A program made the position numbers and the translations under genes. Below are positions 8,309-62,059 of a stretch of DNA of 64,000 nt, piece after piece. The notes under the pieces are model-generated. The model did not search any database and had not been told where the DNA came from. It saw only the letters and a list, made by a program, of their open reading frames with translations. This DNA is from an uncultured Gammaproteobacteria bacterium (GTDB taxonomy: Bacteria > Patescibacteriota > Patescibacteriia > UBA1558 > S5-K13), in assembly GCA_964424195.1 (NCBI GenBank), contig CAYRHT010000001.1:6102-70101 (forward strand). The letters are read 5' to 3'. How positions within the stretch are numbered: the first letter of the stretch is position 1; each line of letters begins with the position of its first letter.

Positions 8309-8911
8309 TTGACTAAACTCTTATTATTTTATAACTTAAGTATACAAAAATATATGTTTAAAAAACAGGCCGGCGGAAGCCAACTTCTAGATTCTAGGGA
8401 AATATTAGAAAGTAAAATCGGACTGGGTTATGGAAATGTAGTAGCTGATTTAGGATGTGGTCCTAAAGCTTACTTTACTTTTCAATCTGCTCGAATAGTT
8501 GGAGACCGAGGAATAGTTTATGCTGTTGATATCCAGAAGCAAGTATTGTCTTCAGTAGAGAGTCATGCTAAGAATCAGAACTTAAACAATATTAAGACTG
8601 TCTGGAGTAATTTAGAAATAAGTGGAGCTACTAAAATTCAAGAGAGTTCTTTAGACTTAGCAATATTAAATAATGTCTTGTTTCAATCAGCAGATATGCC
8701 AGAGATGATTAAGGAAGCTGTTAGATTAACTAAAGCTGGCGGTAGATTATTAGTTATAGATTGGAAGAGTACTGGAGCTCCTCTGGGACCTAAAGTGGAT
8801 TTAAAAGTAAATCCAGAAAAAGTTAAAGAACTTGCTGAAGTATTTGGATTAAAGCTAGAAGAAGAGTTTGAAGCTGGACAGTATCACTTTGGTTTAATTT
8901 TTAGAAAGTAA
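8309..8911 (+). CDS. Class I SAM-dependent methyltransferase
   Basis: The VADLGCGPKAY segment matches motif I (GxGxG-like), and an acidic residue follows the next beta strand (VYAVDIQ). Confidence 0.65.
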   Translation: MTKLLLFYNLSIQKYMFKKQAGGSQLLDSREILESKIGLGYGNVVADLGCGPKAYFTFQSARIVGDRGIVYAVDIQKQVLSSVESHAKNQNLNNIKTVWSNLEISGATKIQESSLDLAILNNVLFQSADMPEMIKEAVRLTKAGGRLLVIDWKSTGAPLGPKVDLKVNPEKVKELAEVFGLKLEEEFEAGQYHFGLIFRK

Positions 8912-20043: not shown

Positions 20044-20221
20044 TATATCTACCTGTTGATAAATATAAAAAATCGCTTATGTTTTTATAGTTTATTTCTC
20101 AGGTTGAAAATATAAATTCGTTTTTTGACAATTAAATAGTGATAGAAACACATGCGTCTTATATTTATTTATAAGATTCAATTCTAATTTTTTGAATATT
20201 TTTTATAAAAAATATTCCATT

Positions 20222-21713
<1,492 letters not shown>

Positions 21714-21918
21714 TAAGGAGTTACATTAACCCCTCACGGGTTAATCAGATCGTTCGATAAATCTTCGGATTTATTGACTGTTTCTATCACTATTTAGTTG
21801 TTAAGTTTTAAGACTCCTTAATCAACTCCCTTGATTTTATGAAAGCTATAAAGTATTATAAAGGAGTTCATTCAGGAGTTTTTTGTTAGAAATTTTAAAT
21901 TTATTGTCTATTGTTGAT

Positions 21919-21995
21919 GGGCGCATAGCTCAGTTGGTTAGAGCGCTACACTGATAATGTAGAGGTCCCAAGTTCAACTCTTGGTGCGCCCACCA
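21919..21995 (+). tRNA. tRNA-Ile(GAT)
   Basis: Anticodon loop CTGATAA. In the ITS position downstream of 16S. Confidence 0.85.
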
Positions 21996-22020
21996 ATAGT
22001 AGATAAGTTTATTATATTAT

Positions 22021-22095
22021 GCCGCGGTAGCTCAGTGGTAGAGCAGAGGATTGAAAATCCTCGTGTCGGTGGTTCAATTCCGCCCCGCGGCACCA
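22021..22095 (+). tRNA. tRNA-Phe(GAA)
   Basis: GCCGCGG acceptor, anticodon loop TTGAAAA, CCA encoded. Confidence 0.85.
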
Positions 22096-22102
22096 AATAT
22101 TT

Positions 22103-22179
22103 CGGGGTGTGGCGCAGTTGGCTAGCGCGCGTCGTTTGGGACGATGAGGTCGGAGGTTCGAGTCCTCTCACCCCGACCA
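22103..22179 (+). tRNA. tRNA-Pro(TGG)
   Basis: CGGGGTG acceptor, anticodon loop TTTGGGA, CCA encoded. Confidence 0.8.
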
Positions 22180-49162: not shown

Positions 49163-50473
49163 ATGGAAATAAATATATATATGAGTACAGAAGATACAAA
49201 AGACAAAAAGAAAAGTGCATTTAGTAAAATTTTAGAAACTCACGATGAGATTAAATTGCCTAAAGTAGGGGATTTAATTGAAGGTGTAATTGTTTCATTA
49301 GGAAAAAATGAAGTTGTTTTAGATTACAAAGGAATTGCTGCCGGCTTGATTAGAGGTGGAGAAATTCATGATGAATCTGGTGTCAGCAGCGATTTTAAAG
49401 TTGGTGATGCAGCTAAAGCTACTGTTTTAGAAATGGATAATGAAAAAGGTTTCATGGAATTATCTTTTAGATATGCTGGACATCAACAAGCTTGGGAAAA
49501 TTTAGAGAAATTAATGAAAGATGAAGAGATTGTACAAGCTAAGGTAATGGATGCTAACAAAGGTGGTTTAATGGTTAAAGTTGGTAATGTTTTAGGATTT
49601 TTACCAGTTTCTCAATTAACAACTAAATATTATCCTCGAGTAGAAGGTGGAGACAAAGGTAAGATTTTAGGACATCTAAAATCTTTTATCGGTGAAGAAT
49701 TTAATGTCGCTATTATTGATGTTGATGAAAAAGAATCAAAATTAATTGTTTCTCAAAAAGCTGCTTTAGCAGAAGATCAAAAAGAAAACCTAGCTGAATA
49801 CAAAGTTGGTAAACATATTGAAGGTAAAATTACTGGAGTTGCTGGATTTGGTGCTTTTGTAGAATTTGGAGATAATTTAGAAGGCTTAGTTCATATTTCA
49901 GAAATTGCTTGGCAAAGAATTGATAATCCTAATGATGTTGTTAAAGTTGGTGACAAAGTTAAAGCTGAAGTCATTTCAGTAGAAGGTGGCCGAATTTCTT
50001 TAAGTATGAAGAGATTAATTAAAGATCCTTGGGCAGTAATTGCTGAGAAATATCAAGTTGGTGATAAGGTTAAAGGAGTTGTTCTAAAGATTAATCCTTT
50101 TGGTGCTTTTGTAGAATTGGATAGAGATATTCATGGTTTAGCTCATATTTCAGAATTGAGTAGCCATATTATTAATAGTCCAGAAGATGTAGTTAATGTT
50201 GGAGAAGAGTATGAATTTGTAATTATTAATTTAGATACAACTAAGCATAGGTTAGGACTTTCTTTAAAAGCTTTAAAAGAAAAGAAAGTAAAGACAGACG
50301 ACAAAAAGGTAGAAGAGAAGAAAGAAAAAACTGAAGAGGTTAAGGAAGAAAAAGCTCCTAAAGAAGAAGAAACTGAAACTCCAAAAGAAGACCCTAAATC
50401 AGAAGAAGTTAAAGAAGAAAAAGTAGAAGAAGCTAAGGACTCAAAGGATAAAAAAGTCAAAAAGAAAAAATAG
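49163..50473 (+). CDS. rpsA: 30S ribosomal protein S1 (four S1 domains plus a K/E-rich C-terminal tail)
   Basis: Repeated S1-domain signatures (GxV.G.V..i..fGaFV......GLvHiSE). Confidence 0.85.
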   Translation: MEINIYMSTEDTKDKKKSAFSKILETHDEIKLPKVGDLIEGVIVSLGKNEVVLDYKGIAAGLIRGGEIHDESGVSSDFKVGDAAKATVLEMDNEKGFMELSFRYAGHQQAWENLEKLMKDEEIVQAKVMDANKGGLMVKVGNVLGFLPVSQLTTKYYPRVEGGDKGKILGHLKSFIGEEFNVAIIDVDEKESKLIVSQKAALAEDQKENLAEYKVGKHIEGKITGVAGFGAFVEFGDNLEGLVHISEIAWQRIDNPNDVVKVGDKVKAEVISVEGGRISLSMKRLIKDPWAVIAEKYQVGDKVKGVVLKINPFGAFVELDRDIHGLAHISELSSHIINSPEDVVNVGEEYEFVIINLDTTKHRLGLSLKALKEKKVKTDDKKVEEKKEKTEEVKEEKAPKEEETETPKEDPKSEEVKEEKVEEAKDSKDKKVKKKK

Positions 50474-50554: not shown

Positions 50555-52372
50555 ATGAAAGGTAGCTTAAAAAGTTTTTTAATATTTGTTGTAATAATAC
50601 TAGCCATTGGAGCAGCATTTAGTTTTTATGATATTCAAAAAGACAAAGAAGAAAATATTTCTTTAATTCAATTAAGTAATAGTATTAAATCTGGTGAAGT
50701 AGAGACTATAGATATTTCTGGAGATAATTTAGATATTGAATTTAGAGATGGAAGTCTTAAAAAAAGTCAGAAGGAAAGAGAAGAGTCTCTTACTCAGACT
50801 TTAATTAATTTAGGTGTAGATAGTAAAGAATTATCTACAATTAATATGGAAATAGTTGATGAGTCAGGTTTCAGTTTTTGGGCATACAGTTTATTACCAT
50901 TTTTAATTCCTTTCCTTTTAATTGGATTCTTTGTATGGTTTATGTTCCGAAAGGTTCAAGGAGCTAATTCTAAAGCTATGAGCTTTGGAGAATCTGGAGC
51001 TAAAGAAGCAGACAAAAAAAAGAAGACTACTTTTAATGATGTCGCCGGAGCTAAAGAAGCTAAAGAAGAATTAGATGAAATAGTAGATTTCTTAAAAGAT
51101 GCTCAGAAATTTATAAAATTAGGAGCTGAAATTCCTAAAGGAGTATTGTTATTAGGTTCACCAGGAACAGGTAAAACTTTGTTAGCTAGAGCTATAGCTG
51201 GTGAAGCTGATGTTCCTTTTTTTCATATCTCAGGTTCTGAATTCGTAGAAATGTTTGTAGGAGTTGGTGCTTCTCGAGTCCGAGATCTATTCAAGAAAGC
51301 TAAAAAACAATCTCCTTGCATTGTCTTCATTGATGAAATTGATGCTGTCGGTAGACAAAGAGGAGCTGGTTTAGGTGGTTCACATGATGAACGAGAACAA
51401 ACATTAAATCAAATATTGGTAGAGATGGATGGTTTTGATAACAAAACTAATGTGATTGTTATTGCTGCTACTAATCGACCAGATGTTTTAGATCCAGCAT
51501 TATTAAGACCAGGTCGTTTTGATCGACAAGTTGTTATTGATTTACCAGATATTAAAGATCGGGAATCTATTTTGAAATTACATGCTCAGAACAAGCCCTT
51601 AGAAAAAGATGTTGCTTTAAAAGTTGTTGCTCAAAGAACTCCAGGATTTTCTGGAGCAGACTTAAGAAATGTTTTAAATGAAGCTGCTATTCTTTCTGCT
51701 CGTCAGGATAAAAGAAAAATTTCTCAACAAGATATTTTAGATAGTATTGAAAAAGTAATATTAGGACCAGAAAGAAAGAGTCATATTATGTCTGAAGAAG
51801 AAAAGAAGATTACAGCTTGTCATGAAGCTGGACATGCTCTAGTTGGTCATTTATTACCACATTGTGATCCTATTCACAAAGTTTCAATAATCTCTCGAGG
51901 AAGAGCAGCTGGTTATACCATGAATCTTCCAGAGAATGAAAAACATTTACATACTAAATCTAAATATGCCGATGATATTGCAATGATGTTAGGTGGTTTA
52001 GTGGCTGAACAGATTGTCTTTAAAGAAAATAGTAATGGTGCTAGTTCAGATTTAAAACAAGTTAGTAATTTAGCTAAACAAATTATTACTAAGTTTGGAA
52101 TGAATGAAGATTTAGGTTATCGATCATTTGGACAAGGTGAAGGTATGGTCTTTTTAGGAAAAGAAATCCATGAACGAAAAGATTATAGTGAAAAGACAGC
52201 AGAGAATATTGATATAGAGATTAAGAAGTTAGTAGATTCTTGTTATCAAAAAGCTAAAGATACAATTATTGAAAACAGAGATGTTTTAGATAAAATAACT
52301 AATACTTTATTAGAGAAAGAAACTATTGAAAGAGAAGAATTTGAAAAACTAGTTGGTAAGAAAAAAGTATAA
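50555..52372 (+). CDS. ftsH: ATP-dependent zinc metalloprotease FtsH
   Basis: AAA Walker [22 protein letters not shown] region, HEAGHAL zinc motif and N-terminal TM helices. Confidence 0.95.
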
Positions 52373-52389
52373 GATTTAAATATATTTTT

Positions 52390-52418
52390 AAACCCCTACT
52401 TTGAAGTAGGGGTTTTTT
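52390..52418 (+). terminator. Rho-independent terminator AAACCCCTACTTTGAAGTAGGGGTTTTTT
   Basis: 9-bp GC-rich stem followed by a T-run after ftsH. Confidence 0.75.
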
Positions 52419-52525: not shown

Positions 52526-53602
52526 ATGGAATCTTTATATCGGTCTATTTTAAAAAGTTCTTGGAAAATCACTAAAAAATACAAATTTCTTTGGATCTTT
52601 GGTGTTTTTGCTTTATGGCTTGGTAATGGTGGTGAAATGCAAATATTTTTTAAGACATTAAACTTTGTAGAATCTTCTACAGCTACTAAATTAAGTACTA
52701 CATTTGGAAATAATTTTTTATTTCTGAATTTTTTTAATGGCACAGATTTTTCAGCTATTTTAATTGGAATAATATTTACATTAATATTCCTAAGTTTTTT
52801 ATTAATAGGTGTTTGGTTAGTAATTGTTTCTCAAACAGCAATTATTAATGCTGCTAATTCTATTGATGACAAAAAAGAGACTAGTTTTACTTCAGTTTTA
52901 AAATCATCAACTCCTCATTTCTTACCAGTTCTAGGAATGAATATTATTTCTAAGGTTTTAATATCCCTCTTGGTCTTTTTATTACTATTACCTTTGTTAT
53001 TGATTGTTGTTAATACTGGAAGTAAGTTTGCTTTACTATTTAGTATTATAATTTGGGTTCTATTCTTACCTTTAGCAGCTATTATTTCATTTGTGATGAA
53101 ATATGCTATTAATTTCTTAGTGATTAAGAAAACTAGATTTCTGGAATCTATTTCTAAGGCTTGGCTTTTGTTTAAAACTAATTGGTTAGTTAATATAGAG
53201 ATGGCTATCGCTTTATTAGTTATTAATTTTTTAGTTGGTTTGGTAATAGTATATGTAACCGTTGCCTTTGTTGGTCCTTATTACAAAATTGATATTTTAA
53301 CTGTTTATGCTTTTAAGAATCAAGCTTTTGGTTTAGTCTTCTTTAAGATTTTACCATTAGTAGTTATTTATTTACTCTTAGGTTCTTGTTTAGCAGTTTT
53401 TCAAACAGTTTCTTGGACTTTATTATTCAAGAAGTTAGTTAGTGGAAAAAGATATAGTAAATTAATTAGATTAATCTCCTCTCTATCAAATTATATGAAG
53501 GTAGATAATCAAGTTACTAAAGTTTCAGATATTAAAAAAACTAATTCGAATATTAAGAGAAGACCTGGTCGTCCTAAAGCAAAAAGAAAGATTAAGAAAT
53601 AA
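52526..53602 (+). CDS. Hypothetical polytopic membrane protein with a basic C-terminal tail
   Basis: About 8 TM helices. C-terminus RRPGRPKAKRKIKK. Confidence 0.45.
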   Translation: MESLYRSILKSSWKITKKYKFLWIFGVFALWLGNGGEMQIFFKTLNFVESSTATKLSTTFGNNFLFLNFFNGTDFSAILIGIIFTLIFLSFLLIGVWLVIVSQTAIINAANSIDDKKETSFTSVLKSSTPHFLPVLGMNIISKVLISLLVFLLLLPLLLIVVNTGSKFALLFSIIIWVLFLPLAAIISFVMKYAINFLVIKKTRFLESISKAWLLFKTNWLVNIEMAIALLVINFLVGLVIVYVTVAFVGPYYKIDILTVYAFKNQAFGLVFFKILPLVVIYLLLGSCLAVFQTVSWTLLFKKLVSGKRYSKLIRLISSLSNYMKVDNQVTKVSDIKKTNSNIKRRPGRPKAKRKIKK

Positions 53603-53612
53603 ATTAACTTAA

Positions 53613-55313
53613 ATGGCACAGACTATTAATGATCTTTTTACAGATGATAATCAGAAGGCTGATGCATCTTTAAAATTAGAAACAAAATTGGACGAAATCA
53701 AGACTGATGACTTAGAAGAAGAGACTGAAAAGAGAGCCTCTTCTTTAAATTTGAAATATATTAATTTAAAAGGCTTCCCTATTATTCCCGACGCTTTATC
53801 CCTTATAGAAGAGGATCATGCTAAAAGTCTTGGAGTAGTTTGTTTTTATTCATCAGATGAGATTATAAAAATAGCTACTACTGGTCCAGAAAATCCACAG
53901 TTAAAGAGATTAATGAAAGAATTGTCTTCTGAACAAGATAAAACTATAGATGTATTTTTAATTTCCGAGAAAAGTCTAGAATACGCTTTAGATCTTTATA
54001 GAACTATTCCTAAAGTTTTAGAAATGAAAGAAGGAGTTGACATTAGTGAAGAAGATTTAAAGAAATATGAACAAAAGGATTTAACTTTTGATAAGATAGC
54101 TGATCTTTTAAAAGAGGCAGATATTTCAGAAATAATGACTATTATCATAGCAACAGCTATTCAAGTTGGAGCTTCTGATGTTCACATAGAGGCTGAAGAA
54201 GAAGATATTAAAGTTAGATTAAGAGTAGACGGAGTTTTGCATATAGTATCTTCTTTAAAGAATGATTTATGGTCAAAAATTATTTCTCGAATTAAGTTAA
54301 TTTCTAAATTAAAAATTAATATTACAGATAAACCCCAAGATGGTAGATTTACTATTCATTTAAAGAAAGAGGATGTTGATGTTAGAGTTTCAACTATTCC
54401 TACTAAGTACGGAGAGAGTGTAGTAATGCGTTTGTTAAAAGCATCAACTACTAGTTTAGAATTCGATGATTTAGGTATTAAGAGTAAATCTTTTGTAGAA
54501 TTAAAGAATCAAATTAAAAGACCAAATGGAATGATTATTACTACTGGTCCTACCGGTTCTGGTAAAACCACAACTCTTTATGCAATTTTGCAGAAATTAA
54601 ATTCACCAGAGAATAAGATTATAACCCTAGAAGATCCAATTGAGTATCGTTTAGCCGGAGTTAATCAATCTCAAGTTAAAAAAGATCAGGACTATAGTTT
54701 TGCTTCTGGTTTAAAATCAATTTTACGACAAGATCCAGATATTGTTATGGTTGGTGAGATTAGAGATTTAGAAACAGCAGATATTGCTATTAATGCTTCT
54801 TTAACTGGTCATTTAGTTGTTTCGACTCTACATACCAACTCAGCTTCAGCAGCTATTCCTAGATTTTTGGCTATGGGTGTAAAATCATTTCTATTATCTC
54901 CTTCTTTGAATGCTGTAATTGGTCAAAGGTTAGTTCGTCGAATTTGTCCTCATTGTAAAGAAGAAATTACTTTAGATAATGAGATGTTAACAGAAGTAAT
55001 GAATATTTTGAATAAGATTCCAATGAATTCCGGAACTAGATTAGAAGAGGAAGAATTGAACAATTTAAAATTCTATAAAGGTAAGGGTTGTGAAAAATGT
55101 CATGGTCTAGGTTACAAAGGTCGGATTGGAATATATGAAGTTTTGGTAATGTCTAAGGAAATAGAACAAGCTATTCTAGAAGAGAAGGTTTCCGAAAACA
55201 TTATTCAAGACTTAGCTCAGAAAAGTGGTATGGTTACTATGCTTCAAGATGGATTATTAAAAGCTAAAGAAGGAATTACTACTGTCGATGAAGTTTTTAA
55301 TGTAGCTGATTAA
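53613..55313 (+). CDS. Type II/IV secretion system ATPase (GspE/PilB family)
   Basis: Walker A GPTGSGKTTTLYA, Asp box, His box and the tetracysteine motif CPHCK...CEKCHG. Confidence 0.85.
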   Translation: MAQTINDLFTDDNQKADASLKLETKLDEIKTDDLEEETEKRASSLNLKYINLKGFPIIPDALSLIEEDHAKSLGVVCFYSSDEIIKIATTGPENPQLKRLMKELSSEQDKTIDVFLISEKSLEYALDLYRTIPKVLEMKEGVDISEEDLKKYEQKDLTFDKIADLLKEADISEIMTIIIATAIQVGASDVHIEAEEEDIKVRLRVDGVLHIVSSLKNDLWSKIISRIKLISKLKINITDKPQDGRFTIHLKKEDVDVRVSTIPTKYGESVVMRLLKASTTSLEFDDLGIKSKSFVELKNQIKRPNGMIITTGPTGSGKTTTLYAILQKLNSPENKIITLEDPIEYRLAGVNQSQVKKDQDYSFASGLKSILRQDPDIVMVGEIRDLETADIAINASLTGHLVVSTLHTNSASAAIPRFLAMGVKSFLLSPSLNAVIGQRLVRRICPHCKEEITLDNEMLTEVMNILNKIPMNSGTRLEEEELNNLKFYKGKGCEKCHGLGYKGRIGIYEVLVMSKEIEQAILEEKVSENIIQDLAQKSGMVTMLQDGLLKAKEGITTVDEVFNVAD

Positions 55314-55342: not shown

Positions 55343-56671
55343 ATGGAAAGAAAATCTCCTAAGGCTTATGTAGTTGCTGTAGATATGGGTTATGGTCATC
55401 AAAGAGCGGCTTATCCTTTTTTAGATATTGCTGCTACTGGTCAGATTATTAACGCTAATAAATATCAAGGAATCACTAAAAGAGAAAGAAAAGTTTGGCA
55501 GGGTGGTCGAAAATGGTATGAAATTATTTCTCGTTACAAAAATGTGCCTGTTATCGGAACTACTGCTTTTAGAATTATGGATAATATGCAACGGATTGAA
55601 CCTTTTTATCCCCGAAGAGATTTATCCAAGAATTCAACTCAACAAAAATACTTTTACAAACAAGTGGAAAAAGGTTTAGGTAAAGATTTAATTAAAGAGT
55701 TAAACAAGAATCCTTTACCTTTAGTTACTAGTTTTTTTGTTCCGGCTTACTTTGCAGAATATTATGGTTACAAAGGAAAAATATATTGTATAATTTGTGA
55801 TGCTGATATTGCTCGAGCTTGGGCTCCTCTTAATCCAAAAACAAGTAAAATTAATTATTTAGCACCGAATAAGAGAGTTAAAGAAAGATTAGAGTTATAT
55901 GGTGTTCGATCAGATCGAATCCTTGTTTCTGGTTTTCCTTTACCAAAGGAAAACATTGGTGGTTTGGATAAAAAAATATTAAAACATGATTTAAAATCTC
56001 GTTTATACAATCTAGACCCTAAAAAAGTCTATACTCGTAAGTATTCTAAGCTAATTGAAAATTATCTTTGTCCAGTTAAAGAGATTAAACAAAATAAACA
56101 TCCTTTAACTATTACTTTCGCAGTTGGCGGAGCTGGTGCTCAACGAGACATTGGACTTACAATTGTAAAACGTTTGAAAAAACAAATTAGACAAAATAAG
56201 ATCAGAATTAATTTAGTTGCTGGAGCTCGTAATGATGTTTATTTATTCTTTAAGAAAGCTATTAAAGAATGTAATTTAGACAAATGTAATAATATTAGAA
56301 TTATTTATTCAGATAGTAAATTAAAGTATTTTGAAATTTTTAATAGAGTTTTAAGAACTACTGATGTTTTATGGACTAAACCATCAGAACTCACCTTTTA
56401 TAGTGGATTAGGTATTCCAATTATTATGGCTAAACCAATAGGTTCTCAAGAACACTATAATCGAGAATGGCTTTTAGCAATTGGAGCAGGTATTGATGCT
56501 CAAGATCCAGAATATGTTGATGAGTGGTTATTTGATTGGTTAAATTCTGGTTGGTTAGCAGAAGCTGCTATGCAAGGCTTTTTAGATGCTCCTAAAATGG
56601 GGACATATCATGTTGAAAACATTGTCTTAAGAGGTAAGACTAGTGAAATAGAAGATGTTCATTTATTATGA
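55343..56671 (+). CDS. Putative GT-B glycosyltransferase (MGDG-synthase/UgtP/MurG-like)
   Basis: N-terminal VDMGYGHQRAA and mid-protein FAVGGAGAQ resemble the GT28 N- and C-domain signatures. Assignment is tentative. Confidence 0.4.
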   Translation: MERKSPKAYVVAVDMGYGHQRAAYPFLDIAATGQIINANKYQGITKRERKVWQGGRKWYEIISRYKNVPVIGTTAFRIMDNMQRIEPFYPRRDLSKNSTQQKYFYKQVEKGLGKDLIKELNKNPLPLVTSFFVPAYFAEYYGYKGKIYCIICDADIARAWAPLNPKTSKINYLAPNKRVKERLELYGVRSDRILVSGFPLPKENIGGLDKKILKHDLKSRLYNLDPKKVYTRKYSKLIENYLCPVKEIKQNKHPLTITFAVGGAGAQRDIGLTIVKRLKKQIRQNKIRINLVAGARNDVYLFFKKAIKECNLDKCNNIRIIYSDSKLKYFEIFNRVLRTTDVLWTKPSELTFYSGLGIPIIMAKPIGSQEHYNREWLLAIGAGIDAQDPEYVDEWLFDWLNSGWLAEAAMQGFLDAPKMGTYHVENIVLRGKTSEIEDVHLL

Positions 56672-57948
56672 TTATCAAGAATCTAAAAATTAATAGGTAT
56701 AAAAGTATTAAGAAGCCTTTGGCTCTATCTTTTTCTAATCTAAATATTTTTATCGGTCAAAATAATTGTGGTAAATCTAATATTCTAGATGCTCTAGAAT
56801 TAGTTTTTGATAAAAAGAAAGATAAGACTAATTTATTCTACCCAGATTCAGATATTGAATTAGAATTAGAACTTGGTTCAGAAAAGAATGTAAATTTAAG
56901 TTTAAATAATAGAAAGAGAAAATTATCTAATGATAAATCTTTAGAATCTTTAAATCAGAAAGTAAAAAGGTTAGATGAAGATACTTTTACTAACTACAAG
57001 CAGATTAAAATAGATTATAATACTCTATTTAAATATCCTCAGGCTTTAAATAAGTTTAAGAAAAATTTAAAAAATCATTTCCCTAAGATTGTGATTGATG
57101 AGAATGCTATGGATCTTAAGTATGAAAATGATGGTTTATATGAAGGTCAGAGAAGAGTAACAATGGATTATTTAGGTTCTGGTTTTGGCAGAATATTTAC
57201 AATTTTACTTTATATCTTTCATCCAGAATATGAAGTAGTGATGATTAATGAGCCTGAAATTCATCTTCATCCAGCAATTATTAAGAAGCTCTTATGGGCA
57301 ATGAAAAGTAGTCAGTCCGGACAGATATTTTTTACAACTCATTCTCCTTTATTTATAACTCCTAGTACTTTAGCTAATGTTTTTAGAGTTAGTCAAGAAG
57401 GAAAAAATACTAATGTTTATTCTTTGAAAGAAGGTAGATATGCTCATGAAAGATTGGTTCAAGAACTAAATGCTGATAATTTAGAGATGTTCTTTGCTGA
57501 CAAAGTTATTTTAGTAGAAGGTTCTTCGGATTTACTGTTAATCAAAGGATTGATTAATATTTTTTACAAAGGGAATAAGGAAATAAAAATTATTCAAACC
57601 TATGGTAAATCAAATACTTCAATATATGCTGATTTATTAAAGATTTTTAAGATTCCTTTTCTAATAGTTTTAGATAAAGATGTTTTAAGAGGACACCAAT
57701 TAGAAGAGCTAATGAGACATTTAAATATAGATTTACCAGATATGAGTGGAGAGAAGTTTATTAAAGAACTGCATAAATTTAATATCTATATTTTCCCAAA
57801 TGGTGCTTTGGAAGCTAATTATCCGAAGAAATATCAGGGAGAAAATTCTAAGGCTCGAAATGCTTTATTAGCTGTTAATCAAATAACAGATGCAGATTTT
57901 TATTCTAAGGGAATGAAGAATCTTAGAGGAATTATAGAGTCAATTTAA
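56668..57948 (+). CDS. OLD-family ATP-dependent nuclease (ABC-type ATPase plus Toprim-like C-terminus)
   Basis: N-terminal IFIGQNNCGKSNILDAL P-loop, Walker B/D-loop VMINEPEIHLHP, H-loop FFTTHSP, and C-terminal KVILVEGSSDLLLIKG Toprim-like motif. Overlaps the upstream gene by 4 nt. Confidence 0.6.
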   Translation: MIIKNLKINRYKSIKKPLALSFSNLNIFIGQNNCGKSNILDALELVFDKKKDKTNLFYPDSDIELELELGSEKNVNLSLNNRKRKLSNDKSLESLNQKVKRLDEDTFTNYKQIKIDYNTLFKYPQALNKFKKNLKNHFPKIVIDENAMDLKYENDGLYEGQRRVTMDYLGSGFGRIFTILLYIFHPEYEVVMINEPEIHLHPAIIKKLLWAMKSSQSGQIFFTTHSPLFITPSTLANVFRVSQEGKNTNVYSLKEGRYAHERLVQELNADNLEMFFADKVILVEGSSDLLLIKGLINIFYKGNKEIKIIQTYGKSNTSIYADLLKIFKIPFLIVLDKDVLRGHQLEELMRHLNIDLPDMSGEKFIKELHKFNIYIFPNGALEANYPKKYQGENSKARNALLAVNQITDADFYSKGMKNLRGIIESI

Positions 57949-57963
57949 AAATAATATAAAAAC

Positions 57964-58902
57964 ATGTCTTGGATTTTAGTAGCTGTTCTAGCTTATTTAA
58001 TTTTAGCAGTTGTTAATTTAGCTGATAAGTTTATTTTAGAACAAATAGTTCCTAGAGCTAAAACATATACTTTTTTAGTTGGTTTAGCCGGATTATTAAT
58101 TTTTATAATAGCTCCTTGGACATTATCTTGGCCAGGTTGGAATTTATGGTTAATTACTATTTTAACAGGAGCAACTTTTTCAGTAGCTCTTTTATTTTTC
58201 TATTATGCTTTGAAAAATTCAGAAGCTTCACGTATTACAACTTTAGTAGGTGGTACAGTTCCAATCATGACTCTTTTTCTTTCTATTATCTTTTTCAAGG
58301 AAAGTTTTAGCTTAAGAGAATTAGTGGCTATTCTTTTCTTAGTTGCTGGTACAGTTATTATTTCTATTGTTGATACTAAAAGAACAATCTGGTTTAAAGT
58401 TAAAGAATGGTTTCATATTCCAGCTCCTAAACAAGGTAAAAGTATTTTATTATCTCTTCTAGCAGCTCTTTGTTTTGCTTTGTATTGGGTGGGTACTAAA
58501 TATACTTTTAATAATCAAGAATTTTTAAGTGCTTTAATATGGATTAGACTAGGTTCTTTCTTGGCAGTTTTGGTTTTAGTTCTTAGAAAAAAAGACAGAG
58601 AGAGTATTAAGAAAGATTTATTAAACTCTAATCAGAAAAAGCAAAATAAGTTTATATTTTTTGGAGCTCAAGGATTAGCAGCAATTGGTTCTCTTTTACA
58701 AAATTATGCTGTAGCTTTAGGATCAGTAGTTTTAGTTACTTCTCTACAGGGTTTACAATATGCTTTTATCCTAATTTTTACTTTCCTACTATCCTTATTC
58801 TATCCAAAGATTATTAAAGAGAATCAATCTAAGAAAATAATAATTAAAAAAATAATAGCTATCCTTTTAATTGGCTTAGGGCTATATTTTATAACAACAT
58901 GA
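57964..58902 (+). CDS. Polytopic membrane protein (EamA/DMT-like, 10 TM)
   Basis: Duplicated 5-TM architecture. No specific motif. Confidence 0.4.
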   Translation: MSWILVAVLAYLILAVVNLADKFILEQIVPRAKTYTFLVGLAGLLIFIIAPWTLSWPGWNLWLITILTGATFSVALLFFYYALKNSEASRITTLVGGTVPIMTLFLSIIFFKESFSLRELVAILFLVAGTVIISIVDTKRTIWFKVKEWFHIPAPKQGKSILLSLLAALCFALYWVGTKYTFNNQEFLSALIWIRLGSFLAVLVLVLRKKDRESIKKDLLNSNQKKQNKFIFFGAQGLAAIGSLLQNYAVALGSVVLVTSLQGLQYAFILIFTFLLSLFYPKIIKENQSKKIIIKKIIAILLIGLGLYFITT

Positions 58903-59912
58903 GAATTAATAAAAAAAATATGGGAATTGCATTAATTATACTACTAGTTATACTAGCTTTTTACTATTTAAAATTTGCTAAACATCATCCGCGAGAAATT
59001 AATTTAGATCAAGCTAAGGAAGATTATTGGGGAGTAACATTTTCTAGAAAATTTTGTGATGAAATTGGAGTTGATTGGAAAGAAACATATTTAGCTATGC
59101 TAGATGATTTAAAAGTAAAGAACATTAGAATTCCAATCTATTGGGATGAAGTAGAAATAGAAGATGATCGTTTTGATTTTTCTGATTATGATTTTATCTT
59201 TGATGAAGGAAAGAAACGAGGAGTTAAATTTACTGCTAATATTGGTTGGCGTTTACCAAGATGGCCAGAGTGCCATTCTCCTAAATGGGTCGCTAATTTA
59301 GAAGTTCCTGAAATTAAAGAAAAAACTATTGAAATGCTAAAGCCTGTAGTAAATCATTTTAAACATAGAGATGAAATAATCTATTGGCAAGTAGAGAATG
59401 AGCCTTTGTTAAATTCTTTTGGTATTTGTCCAGATGGGGATGAAAAATTCCTTAGAAAAGAAGTAAAAATGCTTAAGTCTTTAGATCAAAGACCAGTTTT
59501 AATAACAGCTTCTGGAGAATTAAGTTCTTGGAGGCAAGAGTGGGATATTGGAGATATGTTTGGAACTACTATGTATCGAGTTGTTTGGAATCCACTTACT
59601 GGGTATTTTAGATATCCTTTACCAGCTAGTTTTTACAAACTTAAAGCTAAGTTTTTAAAGTTAAAGCCAGGAAATATGATCATTTCTGAATTACAAGCAG
59701 AACCATGGGTTCCTAAAGGTACTTTAGCTAATCTATCACCTAGTGAGTCAAACAAGTCTTTTGATTTAGATCAATTTAAAGCTAATCTTCAATATGCTAT
59801 TAACGCTGATTTAAGTCATTGTTATCTTTGGGGAGTAGAGTGGTGGTATTTAAGAAAAATGAATGGAGCTTCAGAATATTGGGATTTAGCTCAGAGTTTA
59901 TTTAAGAAATAG
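58899..59912 (+). CDS. Membrane-anchored glycoside hydrolase, clan GH-A (GH5-like)
   Basis: YWQVENEPL contains the catalytic acid/base NEP motif of (beta/alpha)8 clan A hydrolases. N-terminal TM anchor. Confidence 0.45.
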   Translation: MRINKKNMGIALIILLVILAFYYLKFAKHHPREINLDQAKEDYWGVTFSRKFCDEIGVDWKETYLAMLDDLKVKNIRIPIYWDEVEIEDDRFDFSDYDFIFDEGKKRGVKFTANIGWRLPRWPECHSPKWVANLEVPEIKEKTIEMLKPVVNHFKHRDEIIYWQVENEPLLNSFGICPDGDEKFLRKEVKMLKSLDQRPVLITASGELSSWRQEWDIGDMFGTTMYRVVWNPLTGYFRYPLPASFYKLKAKFLKLKPGNMIISELQAEPWVPKGTLANLSPSESNKSFDLDQFKANLQYAINADLSHCYLWGVEWWYLRKMNGASEYWDLAQSLFKK

Positions 59913-61534: not shown

Positions 61535-62059
61535 CTATTTAGTTTCTTCTTTTTTATCTTCAGCTTTCTCTTCTTTAACTTCTGGTTTAACTTCTTCCTT
61601 AGGAGTTTCAGTCTTTTCTTCAGGAGTAGGTTTAGCTGGAGCTTCTTCTTTCTTTTCTTCCTTTGGAGTTTCTTTAGTCGGTTTATCCTCTTTAAGAGCA
61701 TCTTCAGTTTTTGATTCTTTTTTCTCTTCTTTTACCTCTTTAGATTTTTCTTCAGTAGCAGCTTTTTTCTCATCTATTTTAGCAGTTCTTTTTTTACTAA
61801 TCTTTACTGCTTTTTTCTTGTCAGCTTCAATGATACCATTTCTTACAAAAAGATTATGAACTGTGTCAGATGCTTGAGCACCTACTGATAACCAATATTT
61901 TATTCTGTCTTCTTTTAATTCTGTTTCTTTAGTTCGGGGATTATAAAAACCAAGCTTCTCTTTATAGTTAGCCCAAGGATCTTTATGTTTCTCCATGACA
62001 ACGATTCTGTAGATTGGCATTTTTTTTCTACCAATTCTTTTAAATCTAATACTTAACAT
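61535..62059 (-). CDS. rpsP: 30S ribosomal protein S16 with a long K/E-rich C-terminal extension
   Basis: MLSIRFKRIGRKKMPIYRIVV...YNP matches the bS16 N-terminus. Confidence 0.8.
   Translation of the reverse strand: MLSIRFKRIGRKKMPIYRIVVMEKHKDPWANYKEKLGFYNPRTKETELKEDRIKYWLSVGAQASDTVHNLFVRNGIIEADKKKAVKISKKRTAKIDEKKAATEEKSKEVKEEKKESKTEDALKEDKPTKETPKEEKKEEAPAKPTPEEKTETPKEEVKPEVKEEKAEDKKEETK

What the first reader, a model, noticed from the sequence alone, without database searches (positions are those of the whole stretch)
55343..59912. OLD-family ATPase/Toprim nuclease embedded in a glycosyltransferase / membrane protein / GH-A hydrolase operon downstream of a PilB-like ATPase
ORF 56668-57948 has the P-loop, D-loop, H-loop and a C-terminal VEGxSD Toprim-like motif of OLD-family nucleases. 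These are single-gene (class 1) relatives of Gabija GajA and of AriA-AriB in the PARIS system, and are widely implicated in anti-phage defence. It overlaps the upstream GT-B-like gene by 4 nt. It is followed by a 10-TM protein and a membrane-anchored NEP-motif glycosidase, all apparently in one operon. A defence nuclease co-transcribed with cell-envelope enzymes is unusual and may indicate a defence island or a surface-modification module.
Basis: partly seen in the sequence, partly recalled or inferred. Interest (0 to 1): 0.55.

Follow-up and report, generated by a model that had tools for sequence, protein, structure and literature searches.

The report
Compact OLD nuclease fixed in envelope operon
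The gene is a real but unusually short OLD-family ATPase/Toprim nuclease that was inserted once into a conserved cell-envelope sugar operon of one group of ultra-small (CPR) bacteria and has been inherited vertically ever since, so it is neither part of a defence island nor a working part of the envelope pathway.

Summary
ORF 56668-57948 encodes a 426-aa OLD-family protein: an ABC-type ATPase plus an OLD-like Toprim domain (PF20469). Its best PADLOC model is 'Old', and its best solved relative by sequence and by fold is the Thermus scotoductus class 1 OLD (6p74). It overlaps the upstream GT-B gene by ATGA. A 10-TM EamA transporter and a membrane-anchored clan GH-A hydrolase follow it.

GT-EamA-GH is a widespread CPR envelope cassette. 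About 59 related loci carry it without any OLD gene. The OLD-like gene sits at the GT|EamA junction in one Komeilibacteria-like clade only. There it is present in 10 of 10 loci checked from the GT side and in 46 species-representative genomes. It co-diverges with its neighbours (Mantel r 0.86-0.92) at the same rate as EamA and GH. No neighbour matches a defence model, and no viral contig carries the subfamily. More distant orthologs sit singly at unrelated housekeeping loci.

It is therefore a lineage-fixed, autonomous, class-1-type OLD nuclease riding on an envelope operon. It belongs to a small compact subfamily (33 clusters at 50% identity) that is about 100 aa shorter than TsOLD, mostly in the ATPase insertion. 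All mapped catalytic residues are invariant except the Walker-B acidic position (N194 here). Its biological role is not settled: constitutive defence or housekeeping nucleic-acid processing.

The parts
56668..57948 (+). Compact OLD-family (class-1-type) ATPase/Toprim nuclease gene, 426 aa
   Evidence: Pfam AAA_15, AAA_21 and OLD-like_TOPRIM. PADLOC 'Old' 2.9e-38. Profile against PDB: 6p74 at 3.4e-22. AF2 model pLDDT 87; Foldseek top hit 6p74 at E 3.4e-20.
56755..56778 (+). Walker A / P-loop (G30-Q-N-N-C-G-K36-S37)
   Evidence: G30, N32, G35 and K36 are invariant in 53 orthologs. K36 aligns with TsOLD K34 (PMC7049728).
57244..57273 (+). Walker B to D-loop (I193-N194-E195-P-E197-I-H-L-H201-P202). 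N194 occupies the acidic Walker-B position.
   Evidence: HMMER alignment to 6p74: Ts E276 aligns with N194, E277 with E195 and H283 with H201. Column 194 is D in 29, N in 15 and S in 9 sequences; E195, E197 and H201 are invariant.
57337..57348 (+). H-loop (T224-H225-S-P227)
   Evidence: H225 is invariant and aligns with TsOLD H310.
57517..57531 (+). Toprim glutamate motif (E284-G-S-S-D288): metal A Glu and metal B Asp
   Evidence: Aligns with TsOLD E377 and D381. Invariant in 53 orthologs and 14 distant members.
57673..57681 (+). Toprim DxD motif (D336-K-D338), metal A
   Evidence: Aligns with TsOLD D431 and D433. Invariant.
57811..57831 (+). Putative metal-B Glu and basic residue (E382 ... 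K387-K388); inferred equivalents of TsOLD E480 and R487
   Evidence: E382 is invariant; position 388 is K or R in 51 of 53. The spacing resembles Ts E480 to R487 (PMC7049728). No residue-level alignment was obtained for this stretch, so this is an inference.
55343..56671 (+). GT-B glycosyltransferase (DUF6938; GT28/UgtP-like). Upstream host-operon gene, not part of the OLD function.
   Evidence: PF22053 at 6.5e-17. Profile against PDB: processive diacylglycerol beta-glucosyltransferase 9wde at 2e-10. Some orthologs also carry PF06925.
57964..58902 (+). EamA/DMT-superfamily 10-TM transporter (host-operon gene)
   Evidence: PF00892 at 7e-20 over two stretches. About 10 hydrophobic segments.
58899..59912 (+). 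Membrane-anchored clan GH-A glycoside hydrolase-like protein (host-operon gene)
   Evidence: Profile against PDB: GH5 endoglucanase 7vt5 at 2.6e-9 and PslG at 2.4e-6. N167-E168, E264 and E268 are invariant. One N-terminal TM segment.
53613..55313 (+). PilB-type T4P/T2SS assembly ATPase. An upstream neighbour only in the window's subclade.
   Evidence: T2SSE at 2e-127. Found upstream of GT in the species-representative loci L004, L026, L027, L030 and L033-35 and in the metagenome loci L087-89; other cassettes have HU plus a 700-aa protein instead.

Best explanation
ORF 56668-57948 encodes a compact, class-1-type OLD-family enzyme. It is a soluble ABC-type ATPase whose nucleotide state controls a C-terminal two-metal Toprim nuclease acting on nucleic acid, as shown for TsOLD, P2 Old and Vc OLD.

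The gene is an autonomous single-gene module. In the ancestor of one Komeilibacteria-like clade of Patescibacteria it landed at the GT|EamA junction of a much older envelope cassette. That cassette consists of a GT28/UgtP-like glycosyltransferase, an EamA transporter and an extracytoplasmic clan GH-A hydrolase. The gene became fixed there, is translationally packed with GT (ATGA overlap), and has been inherited vertically since. It uses the operon's transcription but does not take part in the envelope chemistry.

Its most likely role is constitutive surveillance or cleavage of foreign DNA (defence). A housekeeping nucleic-acid role is the main alternative.

Shown here: family identity, conserved catalytic residues, the insertion pattern, fixation and co-divergence. 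Inferred: nuclease activity, co-transcription and biological role.
For: Identity:
- Pfam, PADLOC, PDB profile and fold matches all point to OLD, with class 1 TsOLD the closest.
- The catalytic residues mapped to TsOLD are invariant in 53 orthologs and 14 distant members: K36, E195, H201, H225, E284, D288, D336 and D338 (residues defined in PMC7049728).

Autonomy:
- GT-EamA-GH (or GT-GH) cassettes lack the OLD gene in L084, L086 and about 57 further loci.
- Orthologs at 30-37% identity sit alone next to MetRS, a MacB/FtsX ABC transporter, peptide deformylase or a glycogen cluster. None has a helicase or reverse transcriptase.

Fixation:
- In every locus with the OLD-like gene at 40-67% identity (L004-L049, L053; 46 species-representative loci plus the L005 fragment), EamA and GH lie downstream wherever that sequence is held, and GT lies upstream in all but L047.
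- From the GT side, 10 of 10 loci with GT at 68% identity or more carry the gene.
- Mantel correlations: OLD-GT 0.89, OLD-GH 0.92, OLD-EamA 0.86 (p = 0.001). Its distance is 0.94 times that of EamA and 1.06 times that of GH.

Operon packing:
- ATGA overlap with GT and a 15-nt spacer before EamA. The only strong terminator-like site is after FtsH at 52390-52415.

Distinct subfamily:
- Only 33 clusters (at 50% identity) reach E <= 1e-30, mostly 400-460 aa. Generic 550-730 aa OLD/GajA proteins match only residues ~160-340.
Against: - Long-term fixation, vertical inheritance at an ordinary rate, and no neighbouring defence genes are atypical for class 1 OLD defence genes. Those are reported as rare (0.45% of genomes) and sporadic (PMC12392090). 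This weakens the defence half of the statement.
- The Walker-B acidic position (TsOLD E276, essential for ATPase activity) is N194 in the window protein and varies D/N/S in the clade, so ATP hydrolysis may be altered.
- The region between Walker A and Walker B is 84 aa shorter than in TsOLD, and the model has only three short helices (104-137) plus a low-confidence loop (149-169) where TsOLD has its four-helix dimerization domain. Oligomerisation may therefore differ.
- Co-transcription was not shown. In many relatives, 0.4-1.5 kb of non-coding DNA with a conserved palindrome separates the OLD gene from EamA.
Confidence: 0.6

Rival explanations
1. A domesticated OLD-family nuclease with a housekeeping nucleic-acid role in this CPR clade. 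Possible roles are DNA repair or recombination processing, or degradation of DNA imported through type IV pili for nucleotide salvage. It would not serve phage defence.
For: - The gene is fixed in the clade, co-diverges with its neighbours at the rate of ordinary genes, and is embedded among housekeeping genes both here and in distant orthologs.
- No copy was found on viral contigs or phage records.
- PilB lies upstream in the window's subclade, and pilin genes are repeatedly inserted at the cassette junctions (L007, L036, L167, L046, L047, L053).
- The genome is small (953-kb contig), so retaining a 1.3-kb gene implies selection.
Against: - Every experimentally characterised OLD-family protein that came up here acts in phage or MGE conflict (P2 Old, Vc OLD, GajA, retron Eco8, PARIS).
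- Most CPR lineages with the same cassette do without the gene, so it is not generally required.
- Pilins also occur in cassettes that lack the OLD gene (L085), so the pilus link may be coincidental.
Confidence: 0.25
2. The OLD-like protein is a working component of the envelope module. For example, it could be an ABC-type ATPase that energises or regulates the GT/EamA/GH pathway, with the Toprim domain used as a metal- or nucleotide-binding module.
For: - The ATGA overlap with GT and the tight spacing to EamA suggest coupling.
- The order GT-OLD-EamA-GH is conserved in 46 species-representative loci.
- A distant ortholog is also followed by a GT2 gene (L058), and others lie next to glycogen enzymes.
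Against: - The cassette is intact without the gene in about 59 loci.
- Other genes (pilin, CAP-domain protein, VIT1) and non-coding DNA are inserted at the same junctions, so the junction tolerates unrelated cargo.
- All Toprim two-metal nuclease residues are invariant.
- The protein has no TM segment and no transporter-type ABC signature context.
- Distant orthologs sit next to MetRS, peptide deformylase or an ABC transporter.
Confidence: 0.07
3. One reading: a mobile or variably present defence gene that marks a defence island or hotspot inside a surface-modification operon.
For: - The gene is absent from the homologous cassette in sister lineages, so it was acquired.
- The GT|EamA junction repeatedly accepts foreign inserts.
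- Its best PADLOC model is 'Old'.
Against: - No other defence-model hits in the flanks, and no integrase, transposase or repeats were noted.
- The GC content of the gene region (0.28-0.30) equals that of the window.
- The gene is fixed and vertically inherited within the clade.
- It is not found on viral contigs.
Confidence: 0.05

Closest known systems
Class 1 OLD nucleases (Thermus scotoductus OLD, PDB 6p74; phage P2 Old; Vibrio cholerae Vc OLD)
   Same: [quoted passage not shown]
- A single gene with no helicase or reverse-transcriptase partner.
- Best match by sequence profile (3.4e-22) and by fold (E 3.4e-20, TM 0.62).
- The P-loop Lys, D-loop His, H-loop His, metal-A E/DxD and metal-B Asp are conserved.
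- Only 86 aa follow the DxD motif (93 in TsOLD), so there is no room for the extra C-terminal helical domain of class 2.
   Different: - 426 aa against 528 (TsOLD). 84 of the roughly 100 missing residues lie between Walker A and Walker B, where TsOLD has its four-helix dimerization domain.
- The Walker-B acidic residue (Ts E276) is Asn here and varies D/N/S in the clade.
- The gene is fixed and vertically inherited in a CPR clade inside a housekeeping operon, whereas class 1 OLD genes are sporadic or MGE-borne.
- It forms a sharply separated subfamily of 33 clusters at 50% identity.
- No activity or defence phenotype has been tested.
Gabija GajA (class 2 OLD)
   Same: ATPase plus Toprim fold. 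The profile match is 1e-14 and the Foldseek match is E ~1e-15. Many PADLOC GajA models hit at about 1e-27.
   Different: - No GajB (UvrD-like helicase) gene is adjacent; the neighbours are GT and EamA.
- The protein is about 150 aa shorter.
- GajA matches cover only residues ~180-356.
Retron Eco8 OLD effector (class 3) and PARIS AriA/AriB (class 4)
   Same: A related ATPase core and, for Eco8 and AriB, a related Toprim nuclease. Matches: NCBIfam retron_eff_Eco8 at 5e-17 and PADLOC AriA at 6e-28.
   Different: - No reverse transcriptase or ncRNA is nearby.
[quoted passage not shown]
- All scores are far below the curated cut-offs (61.7 against 250 bits for Eco8).
UgtP/YpfP-type glycolipid synthase modules and the PslG-type envelope hydrolase (for the host cassette)
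   Same: - The profile of the GT matches the processive diacylglycerol beta-glucosyltransferase (9wde, 2e-10).
- The GH is a membrane-anchored clan GH-A barrel resembling GH5 and PslG.
- A membrane transporter lies between them. Together this suggests a cytoplasmic synthesis, export and extracytoplasmic processing logic.
   Different: - The GT is filed as DUF6938 with no characterised member, and no paper in the searched library mentions that name.
- The transporter is EamA/DMT, not an LtaA-type MFS.
- The substrates are unknown.

Membership tests
OLD family (ATPase-Toprim nucleases) | N-terminal ABC-type ATPase with P-loop Lys, Walker B, D-loop His and H-loop His | tested here: met
   AAA_15 and AAA_21. 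K36, E195, H201 and H225 are invariant and align to TsOLD K34, E277, H283 and H310. Caveat: the position of Ts E276 is N194, and that column varies D/N/S.
OLD family (ATPase-Toprim nucleases) | C-terminal OLD-type Toprim domain scoring above the curated Pfam threshold | tested here: met
   PF20469 at 51.7 bits against a cut-off of 23.2, residues 275-338.
OLD family (ATPase-Toprim nucleases) | Metal A ligands (Glu plus DxD) and the metal B Asp | tested here: met
   E284, D336, D338 and D288 align with TsOLD E377, D431, D433 and D381. They are invariant in 53 + 14 sequences.
OLD family (ATPase-Toprim nucleases) | Second metal-B pair (S-x-E) and the spatially conserved basic residue (Ts S478, E480, R487) | tested here: inconclusive
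   E382 is invariant and K388 is K or R in 51 of 53, with similar spacing. Position 380 is variable (A here). No residue-level alignment or superposition was obtained for this stretch.
OLD family (ATPase-Toprim nucleases) | Overall fold similar to a solved OLD protein | tested here: met
   AF2 model with pLDDT 87 and pTM 0.84. The Foldseek top hit is 6p74 (E 3.4e-20, TMq 0.62), followed by retron Eco8 OLD and GajA.
OLD family (ATPase-Toprim nucleases) | Metal-dependent nuclease and ATPase activity | not testable with these tools
   Needs biochemistry.
Class 1 OLD | An isolated single gene with no conserved helicase, reverse transcriptase or other partner | tested here: met
   The window neighbours are GT and EamA. 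The neighbours are dispensable, because the cassette exists without the OLD gene. Distant orthologs sit at unrelated loci.
Class 1 OLD | [quoted passage not shown] | tested here: met
   Only 86 residues follow the DxD motif, against 93 in TsOLD. TsOLD is the best match ahead of GajA.
Class 1 OLD | Four-helix dimerization domain inserted into the ATPase | tested here: inconclusive
   The Walker A to Walker B region is 84 aa shorter than in TsOLD. The model shows three short helices (104-137) and then a low-confidence loop (149-169).
Class 1 OLD | Anti-phage or anti-MGE phenotype | not testable with these tools
The distribution (fixed, vertical) is atypical.
Gabija (class 2 OLD, GajA-GajB) | [quoted passage not shown] | tested here: not met
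   The downstream gene is EamA. No helicase is present in 46 orthologous loci.
Retron-associated OLD (class 3) | Flanking reverse transcriptase and retron ncRNA | tested here: not met
   All flanking genes are identified and none is a reverse transcriptase. Rfam finds only the SSU rRNA and tRNAs in the window. The NCBIfam Eco8 score is 61.7 against a cut-off of 250.
PARIS (class 4, AriA/AriB) | ATPase and Toprim encoded as two separate proteins | tested here: not met
   Both domains lie in one 426-aa ORF.
Defence island | Clustering with other defence genes or mobile-element markers, and variable presence among close relatives | tested here: not met
   PADLOC gives no meaningful hits in the 7 neighbours. 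GC content is uniform. The gene is present in 10 of 10 close relatives checked from the GT side.

The most novel reading that the evidence does not exclude
A defence-type OLD nuclease has been domesticated in a clade of ultra-small CPR bacteria into a permanently retained chromosomal gene with a non-defence job. One possibility is processing or degrading DNA taken up by the type IV pilus machinery that recurs at this locus, for nucleotide salvage or recombination. Another is that it is wired to the envelope operon so that nuclease level tracks surface remodelling.
Probability: 0.2. Interest if true: 0.6.

Novelty: new variant of a known kind. Interest (0 to 1): 0.38.

Why it matters
OLD-family nucleases are currently treated as sporadic, often mobile, anti-phage genes. 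Here a compact subfamily has been fixed for a long evolutionary span inside a housekeeping envelope operon of a CPR clade, and every mapped catalytic residue is under purifying selection.

That gives a clean natural case for asking whether defence nucleases can become stable, quasi-core genes in reduced genomes that have few other defences, and what a minimal OLD enzyme with a truncated dimerization insert needs in order to work.

It is also a practical warning. Tight operon packing with envelope genes does not imply a shared function in this case, because the same cassette exists without the nuclease. The finding is moderately interesting, not surprising: the family assignment is standard and the databases already label the protein as OLD-like.

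Tried and rejected
- Housekeeping ABC ATPase (RecF/SMC/Rad50): rejected. Those matches cover only residues 1-50 and score far below the OLD matches.
- Structured RNA in the GC-enriched OLD-to-EamA gaps of relatives: no Rfam family reached the gathering score there. The conserved part is an AT-rich box plus the palindrome TTGGCTAATATTAGCCAA, which has negligible folding or covariation support. The window has no copy.
- Phage origin: no member of the compact subfamily in IMG/VR or in GenBank phages, only short partial hits to generic ATPases.
- Literature: no paper in the searched library mentions DUF6938. The only paper combining 'OLD family' and 'Patescibacteria' concerns eukaryotic OLD-like genes and mentions a Sungbacteria sequence in a tree.
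- A search for a close relative lacking the gene (three long contigs whose lengths matched no OLD hit): all three carry it.
- Defence partners among the neighbours of distant orthologs: none. Their neighbours are MetRS, GT2, MacB/FtsX, peptide deformylase, an ABC-3 permease and glycogen enzymes.
- Not attempted: a promoter call inside the operon. The sigma-70 scan found fewer sites than in shuffled sequence (42 against 56), so it is uninformative in this AT-rich DNA.

Full report
**1. What is there**

The window has about 29% GC. It carries a bacterial 16S rRNA gene and many tRNA genes. The exact protein of interest also lies on a 953-kb contig, and its relatives are labelled Komeilibacteria, Parcubacteria or Patescibacteria. 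This is therefore a CPR (Patescibacteria) genome.

On the + strand the genes run as follows:
- FtsH, 50555-52372
- an unannotated 4-TM protein, 52526-53602
- PilB, 53613-55313
- a GT-B protein (DUF6938), 55343-56671
- the OLD-like gene, 56668-57948
- an EamA transporter, 57964-58902
- a GH-like protein, 58899-59912

Convergent SanA/DUF218 and YkuD genes follow. GT and OLD overlap as ATGA. OLD and EamA are 15 nt apart. EamA and GH overlap by 4 nt. The only convincing terminator-like hairpin in 50-61.5 kb follows FtsH.

**2. The OLD-family call is correct**

The 426-aa protein matches AAA_15, AAA_21 and the OLD-like Toprim domain, which scores 51.7 bits against a cut-off of 23.2. Its best PADLOC model is 'Old' (2.9e-38), ahead of AriA, ATPase-Toprim and many GajA models.

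A 53-sequence profile finds the class 1 OLD of Thermus scotoductus (6p74) at 3.4e-22 and GajA at about 1e-14. RecF, SMC and Rad50 match only the first ~50 residues. The AlphaFold2 model has pLDDT 87 and pTM 0.84. Its best fold match is 6p74 (E 3.4e-20, TM 0.62), followed by retron-Eco8 OLD and GajA.

I used the residues that Schiltz et al. showed to be required in TsOLD (PMC7049728) and the HMMER alignment. The mapping is:
- K34 → K36
- D-loop H283 → H201
- H-loop H310 → H225
- metal A E377, D431, D433 → E284, D336, D338
- metal B D381 → D288

All of these are invariant in 53 orthologs and in 14 more distant members. E382 (invariant) and K388 (K or R in 51 of 53) are plausible equivalents of E480 and R487, but I could not align that stretch residue by residue.

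There are two deviations from TsOLD:
- The acidic Walker-B position (Ts E276, essential for ATPase activity) is N194 here. In the clade it is D in 29, N in 15 and S in 9 sequences, and it is D in all distant members.
- The protein is about 100 aa shorter than TsOLD. 84 of those residues are missing between Walker A and Walker B, where TsOLD has its four-helix dimerization domain. The model shows three short helices (104-137) and a low-confidence loop (149-169) there.

**3. A small, distinct subfamily**

Against 1.84 billion representative proteins, only 33 clusters reach E <= 1e-30. Most are 400-460 aa and align end to end with the query. Below that, ordinary 550-730 aa OLD/GajA proteins match only residues ~160-340. 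The word-indexed search returned 120 full-length hits of 416-462 aa at 46-100% identity. Every hit that carries a taxon name is from Patescibacteria.

**4. Genomic behaviour: the key result**

*From the OLD side.* The scan of GTDB species-representative genomes gave 59 loci with full-length or near-full-length relatives, followed by a sharp drop to partial generic hits. In every locus with the OLD-like gene at 40-67% identity (L004-L049 and L053; 46 species-representative loci plus the L005 fragment), EamA and GH lie downstream wherever that sequence is held. GT lies upstream in all but L047, which has no GT within its 2.7 kb of upstream sequence. The strand and order are always the same. L050 (40% identity) is the one exception: it has about 7 kb of downstream sequence but no cassette. 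GT (66-76% identical) is better conserved than the OLD gene (46-67%) (examples). The outer flanks differ. Some loci have PilB plus the 4-TM protein, and others have SAM synthetase, HU and a 700-aa protein. The four genes therefore travel as a unit.

*From the GT side.* The GT family is far larger, with more than 7,500 hits. In loci where GT is 48-67% identical to the window's GT, the cassette is GT-EamA-GH (often followed by a GT2 gene) or GT-GH, with no OLD gene. This holds for L084, L086 and about 57 further loci. Every locus with GT at 68% identity or more and enough flank has the OLD gene. That is 7 of 7 metagenome loci plus 3 of 3 long contigs chosen because they looked like possible counterexamples.

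A second, higher-GC subclade (L045-48, L053) has GT-CAP-OLD-EamA-GH.

Across 40 taxa the OLD distances correlate with those of GT, GH and EamA (Mantel r 0.89, 0.92 and 0.86; p = 0.001). Their magnitude equals that of EamA (ratio 0.94) and GH (ratio 1.06).

More distant full-length orthologs (30-37% identity) stand alone at unrelated housekeeping loci. They lie next to MetRS with an overlapping stop/start, a MacB/FtsX transporter, peptide deformylase, or convergent to a glycogen cluster. No viral contig or phage record carries the subfamily. None of the seven flanking window proteins matches a defence model meaningfully.

**5. What the neighbours are**

The profile of the GT matches the processive diacylglycerol beta-glucosyltransferase UgtP (9wde, 2e-10), and some orthologs carry the MGDG-synthase Pfam domain. 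The downstream protein is a two-repeat EamA/DMT transporter with about 10 TM segments. The last gene encodes a clan GH-A barrel with one N-terminal anchor, an invariant NEP acid/base motif and ELQAEPW. It is closest to GH5 endoglucanases and PslG. Together they look like a module that synthesises, exports and processes a glycolipid or exopolysaccharide. That part is inference.

**6. Interpretation**

The envelope cassette is the older and more widespread unit. The OLD-like gene is cargo that entered the GT|EamA junction once, or very few times, and was then fixed. The same junctions also accept pilin genes, a CAP-domain protein, VIT1 and non-coding DNA in other genomes. This argues that adjacency there does not imply shared function.

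The enzyme itself is under strong purifying selection on every mapped nuclease and ATPase residue, so it is functional. By homology it should be an ATP-regulated two-metal Toprim nuclease.

Its role in this clade cannot be decided here. It could be constitutive anti-phage or anti-MGE defence, which is the family precedent. It could instead be a domesticated housekeeping role, which the fixed, vertical, ordinary-rate behaviour suggests. I put the combined statement (autonomous class-1-type OLD nuclease fixed in an envelope operon, probably defence) at 0.6, the housekeeping variant at 0.25, a true role in the envelope pathway at 0.07, and the defence-island reading at 0.05.

**7. Novelty and score**

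The family assignment is standard, and JGI already labels the protein 'predicted ATP-dependent endonuclease of OLD family'. Three things are new:
- the compact architecture
- the variable Walker-B position
- lineage-wide fixation inside a conserved housekeeping operon

I rate it a new variant of a known kind, with interest 0.38.

Noticed in passing
Related loci: L003/L037 9338-10307, L040 8335-9892, L017/L020 8344-8845, and L014, L018, L021, L023, L043 at about 8330-8830 (no equivalent in the window, where OLD and EamA are 15 nt apart): Many orthologous cassettes have 0.4-1.5 kb of non-coding DNA between the OLD-like gene and EamA. In most of them it is GC-enriched (for example 0.50 against 0.39 for the locus in L017/L020), though not in L043 (0.33 against 0.33). 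It has no real ORF and no Rfam family at gathering score. A conserved ~80-nt element just after the OLD stop is shared by L003, L022, L028, L029, L032, L036, L037 and L043.
   Followed up: partly
L014 8710-8721, L018 8754-8765, L040 8890-8901 (just upstream of EamA); also L097 4940-4951, L101 164-175 and L104 4887-4898 (just upstream of GT in cassettes that lack the OLD gene): An invariant TTTGTCAAG box is followed about 25-30 nt later by a near-perfect palindrome, TTGGCTAATATTAGCCAA. It looks like a protein-binding operator or internal promoter region, not an RNA structure (alifold energy -1.6 kcal/mol). It is absent from the window even when 3 mismatches are allowed.
   Followed up: partly
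L007 6447-6998, L167 5832-6413 (between GT and OLD); L036 9174-10289 (between OLD and EamA); L046 10527-11012, L047 6602-7054, L053 10585-11046 (after GH); L085 7433-7876 (after GT, no OLD gene): Type IV pilin-like genes (N-terminal GFTLVELLVV / N_methyl motif) are repeatedly inserted at or next to the junctions of the cassette. The window itself has PilB immediately upstream. It is unclear whether this is a functional link to pili or chance.
   Followed up: partly
L045 4186-5478, L046 5579-6865, L047 983-2209, L053 5568-6914: In the higher-GC subclade, a CAP-domain (PF00188) protein of 408-448 aa sits directly upstream of the OLD-like gene, between GT and OLD. L047 also has a VIT1 iron-transporter gene between OLD and EamA.
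   Followed up: partly
window 57247-57249 (codon N194 of the OLD-like gene): The Walker-B acidic position switches between D, N and S several times within the clade, while the adjacent E195, E197 and H201 stay invariant. In TsOLD the equivalent residue E276 is essential for ATPase activity, so this subfamily may tolerate or exploit altered ATP turnover.
   Followed up: partly
L058 5325-8365; L060 2706-4702: In distant CPR lineages, the compact OLD-like gene starts inside or at the stop codon of a core housekeeping gene (methionyl-tRNA synthetase in L058, peptide deformylase in L060). This repeats the 'packed into a housekeeping operon' pattern at different loci.
   Followed up: partly
window 52526-53602 (+): A 358-aa protein with four strong TM segments and a basic C-terminal tail has no Pfam, NCBIfam or PADLOC match. 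It is conserved directly upstream of PilB in relatives (L026, L027, L033, L035; 40-53% identity, with a partial copy at 57% in L004).
   Followed up: no
window 20220-22176: A complete 16S rRNA gene is followed by three tRNA genes, but Rfam finds no 23S or 5S rRNA anywhere in the 64-kb window. The rRNA genes therefore appear unlinked.
   Followed up: no
L040 1068-1166 and L043 1038-1138: SAM-I riboswitches (62-64 bits). In related loci the gene at this position is the SAM synthetase gene, several genes upstream of the cassette, but the downstream gene was not checked in L040 or L043.
   Followed up: no
window 49163-50473 and 61535-62059: A ribosomal protein S1-like ORF and an S16-like ORF (judged from the sequences only, not scanned) both carry long Lys/Glu-rich low-complexity C-terminal tails.
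   Followed up: no
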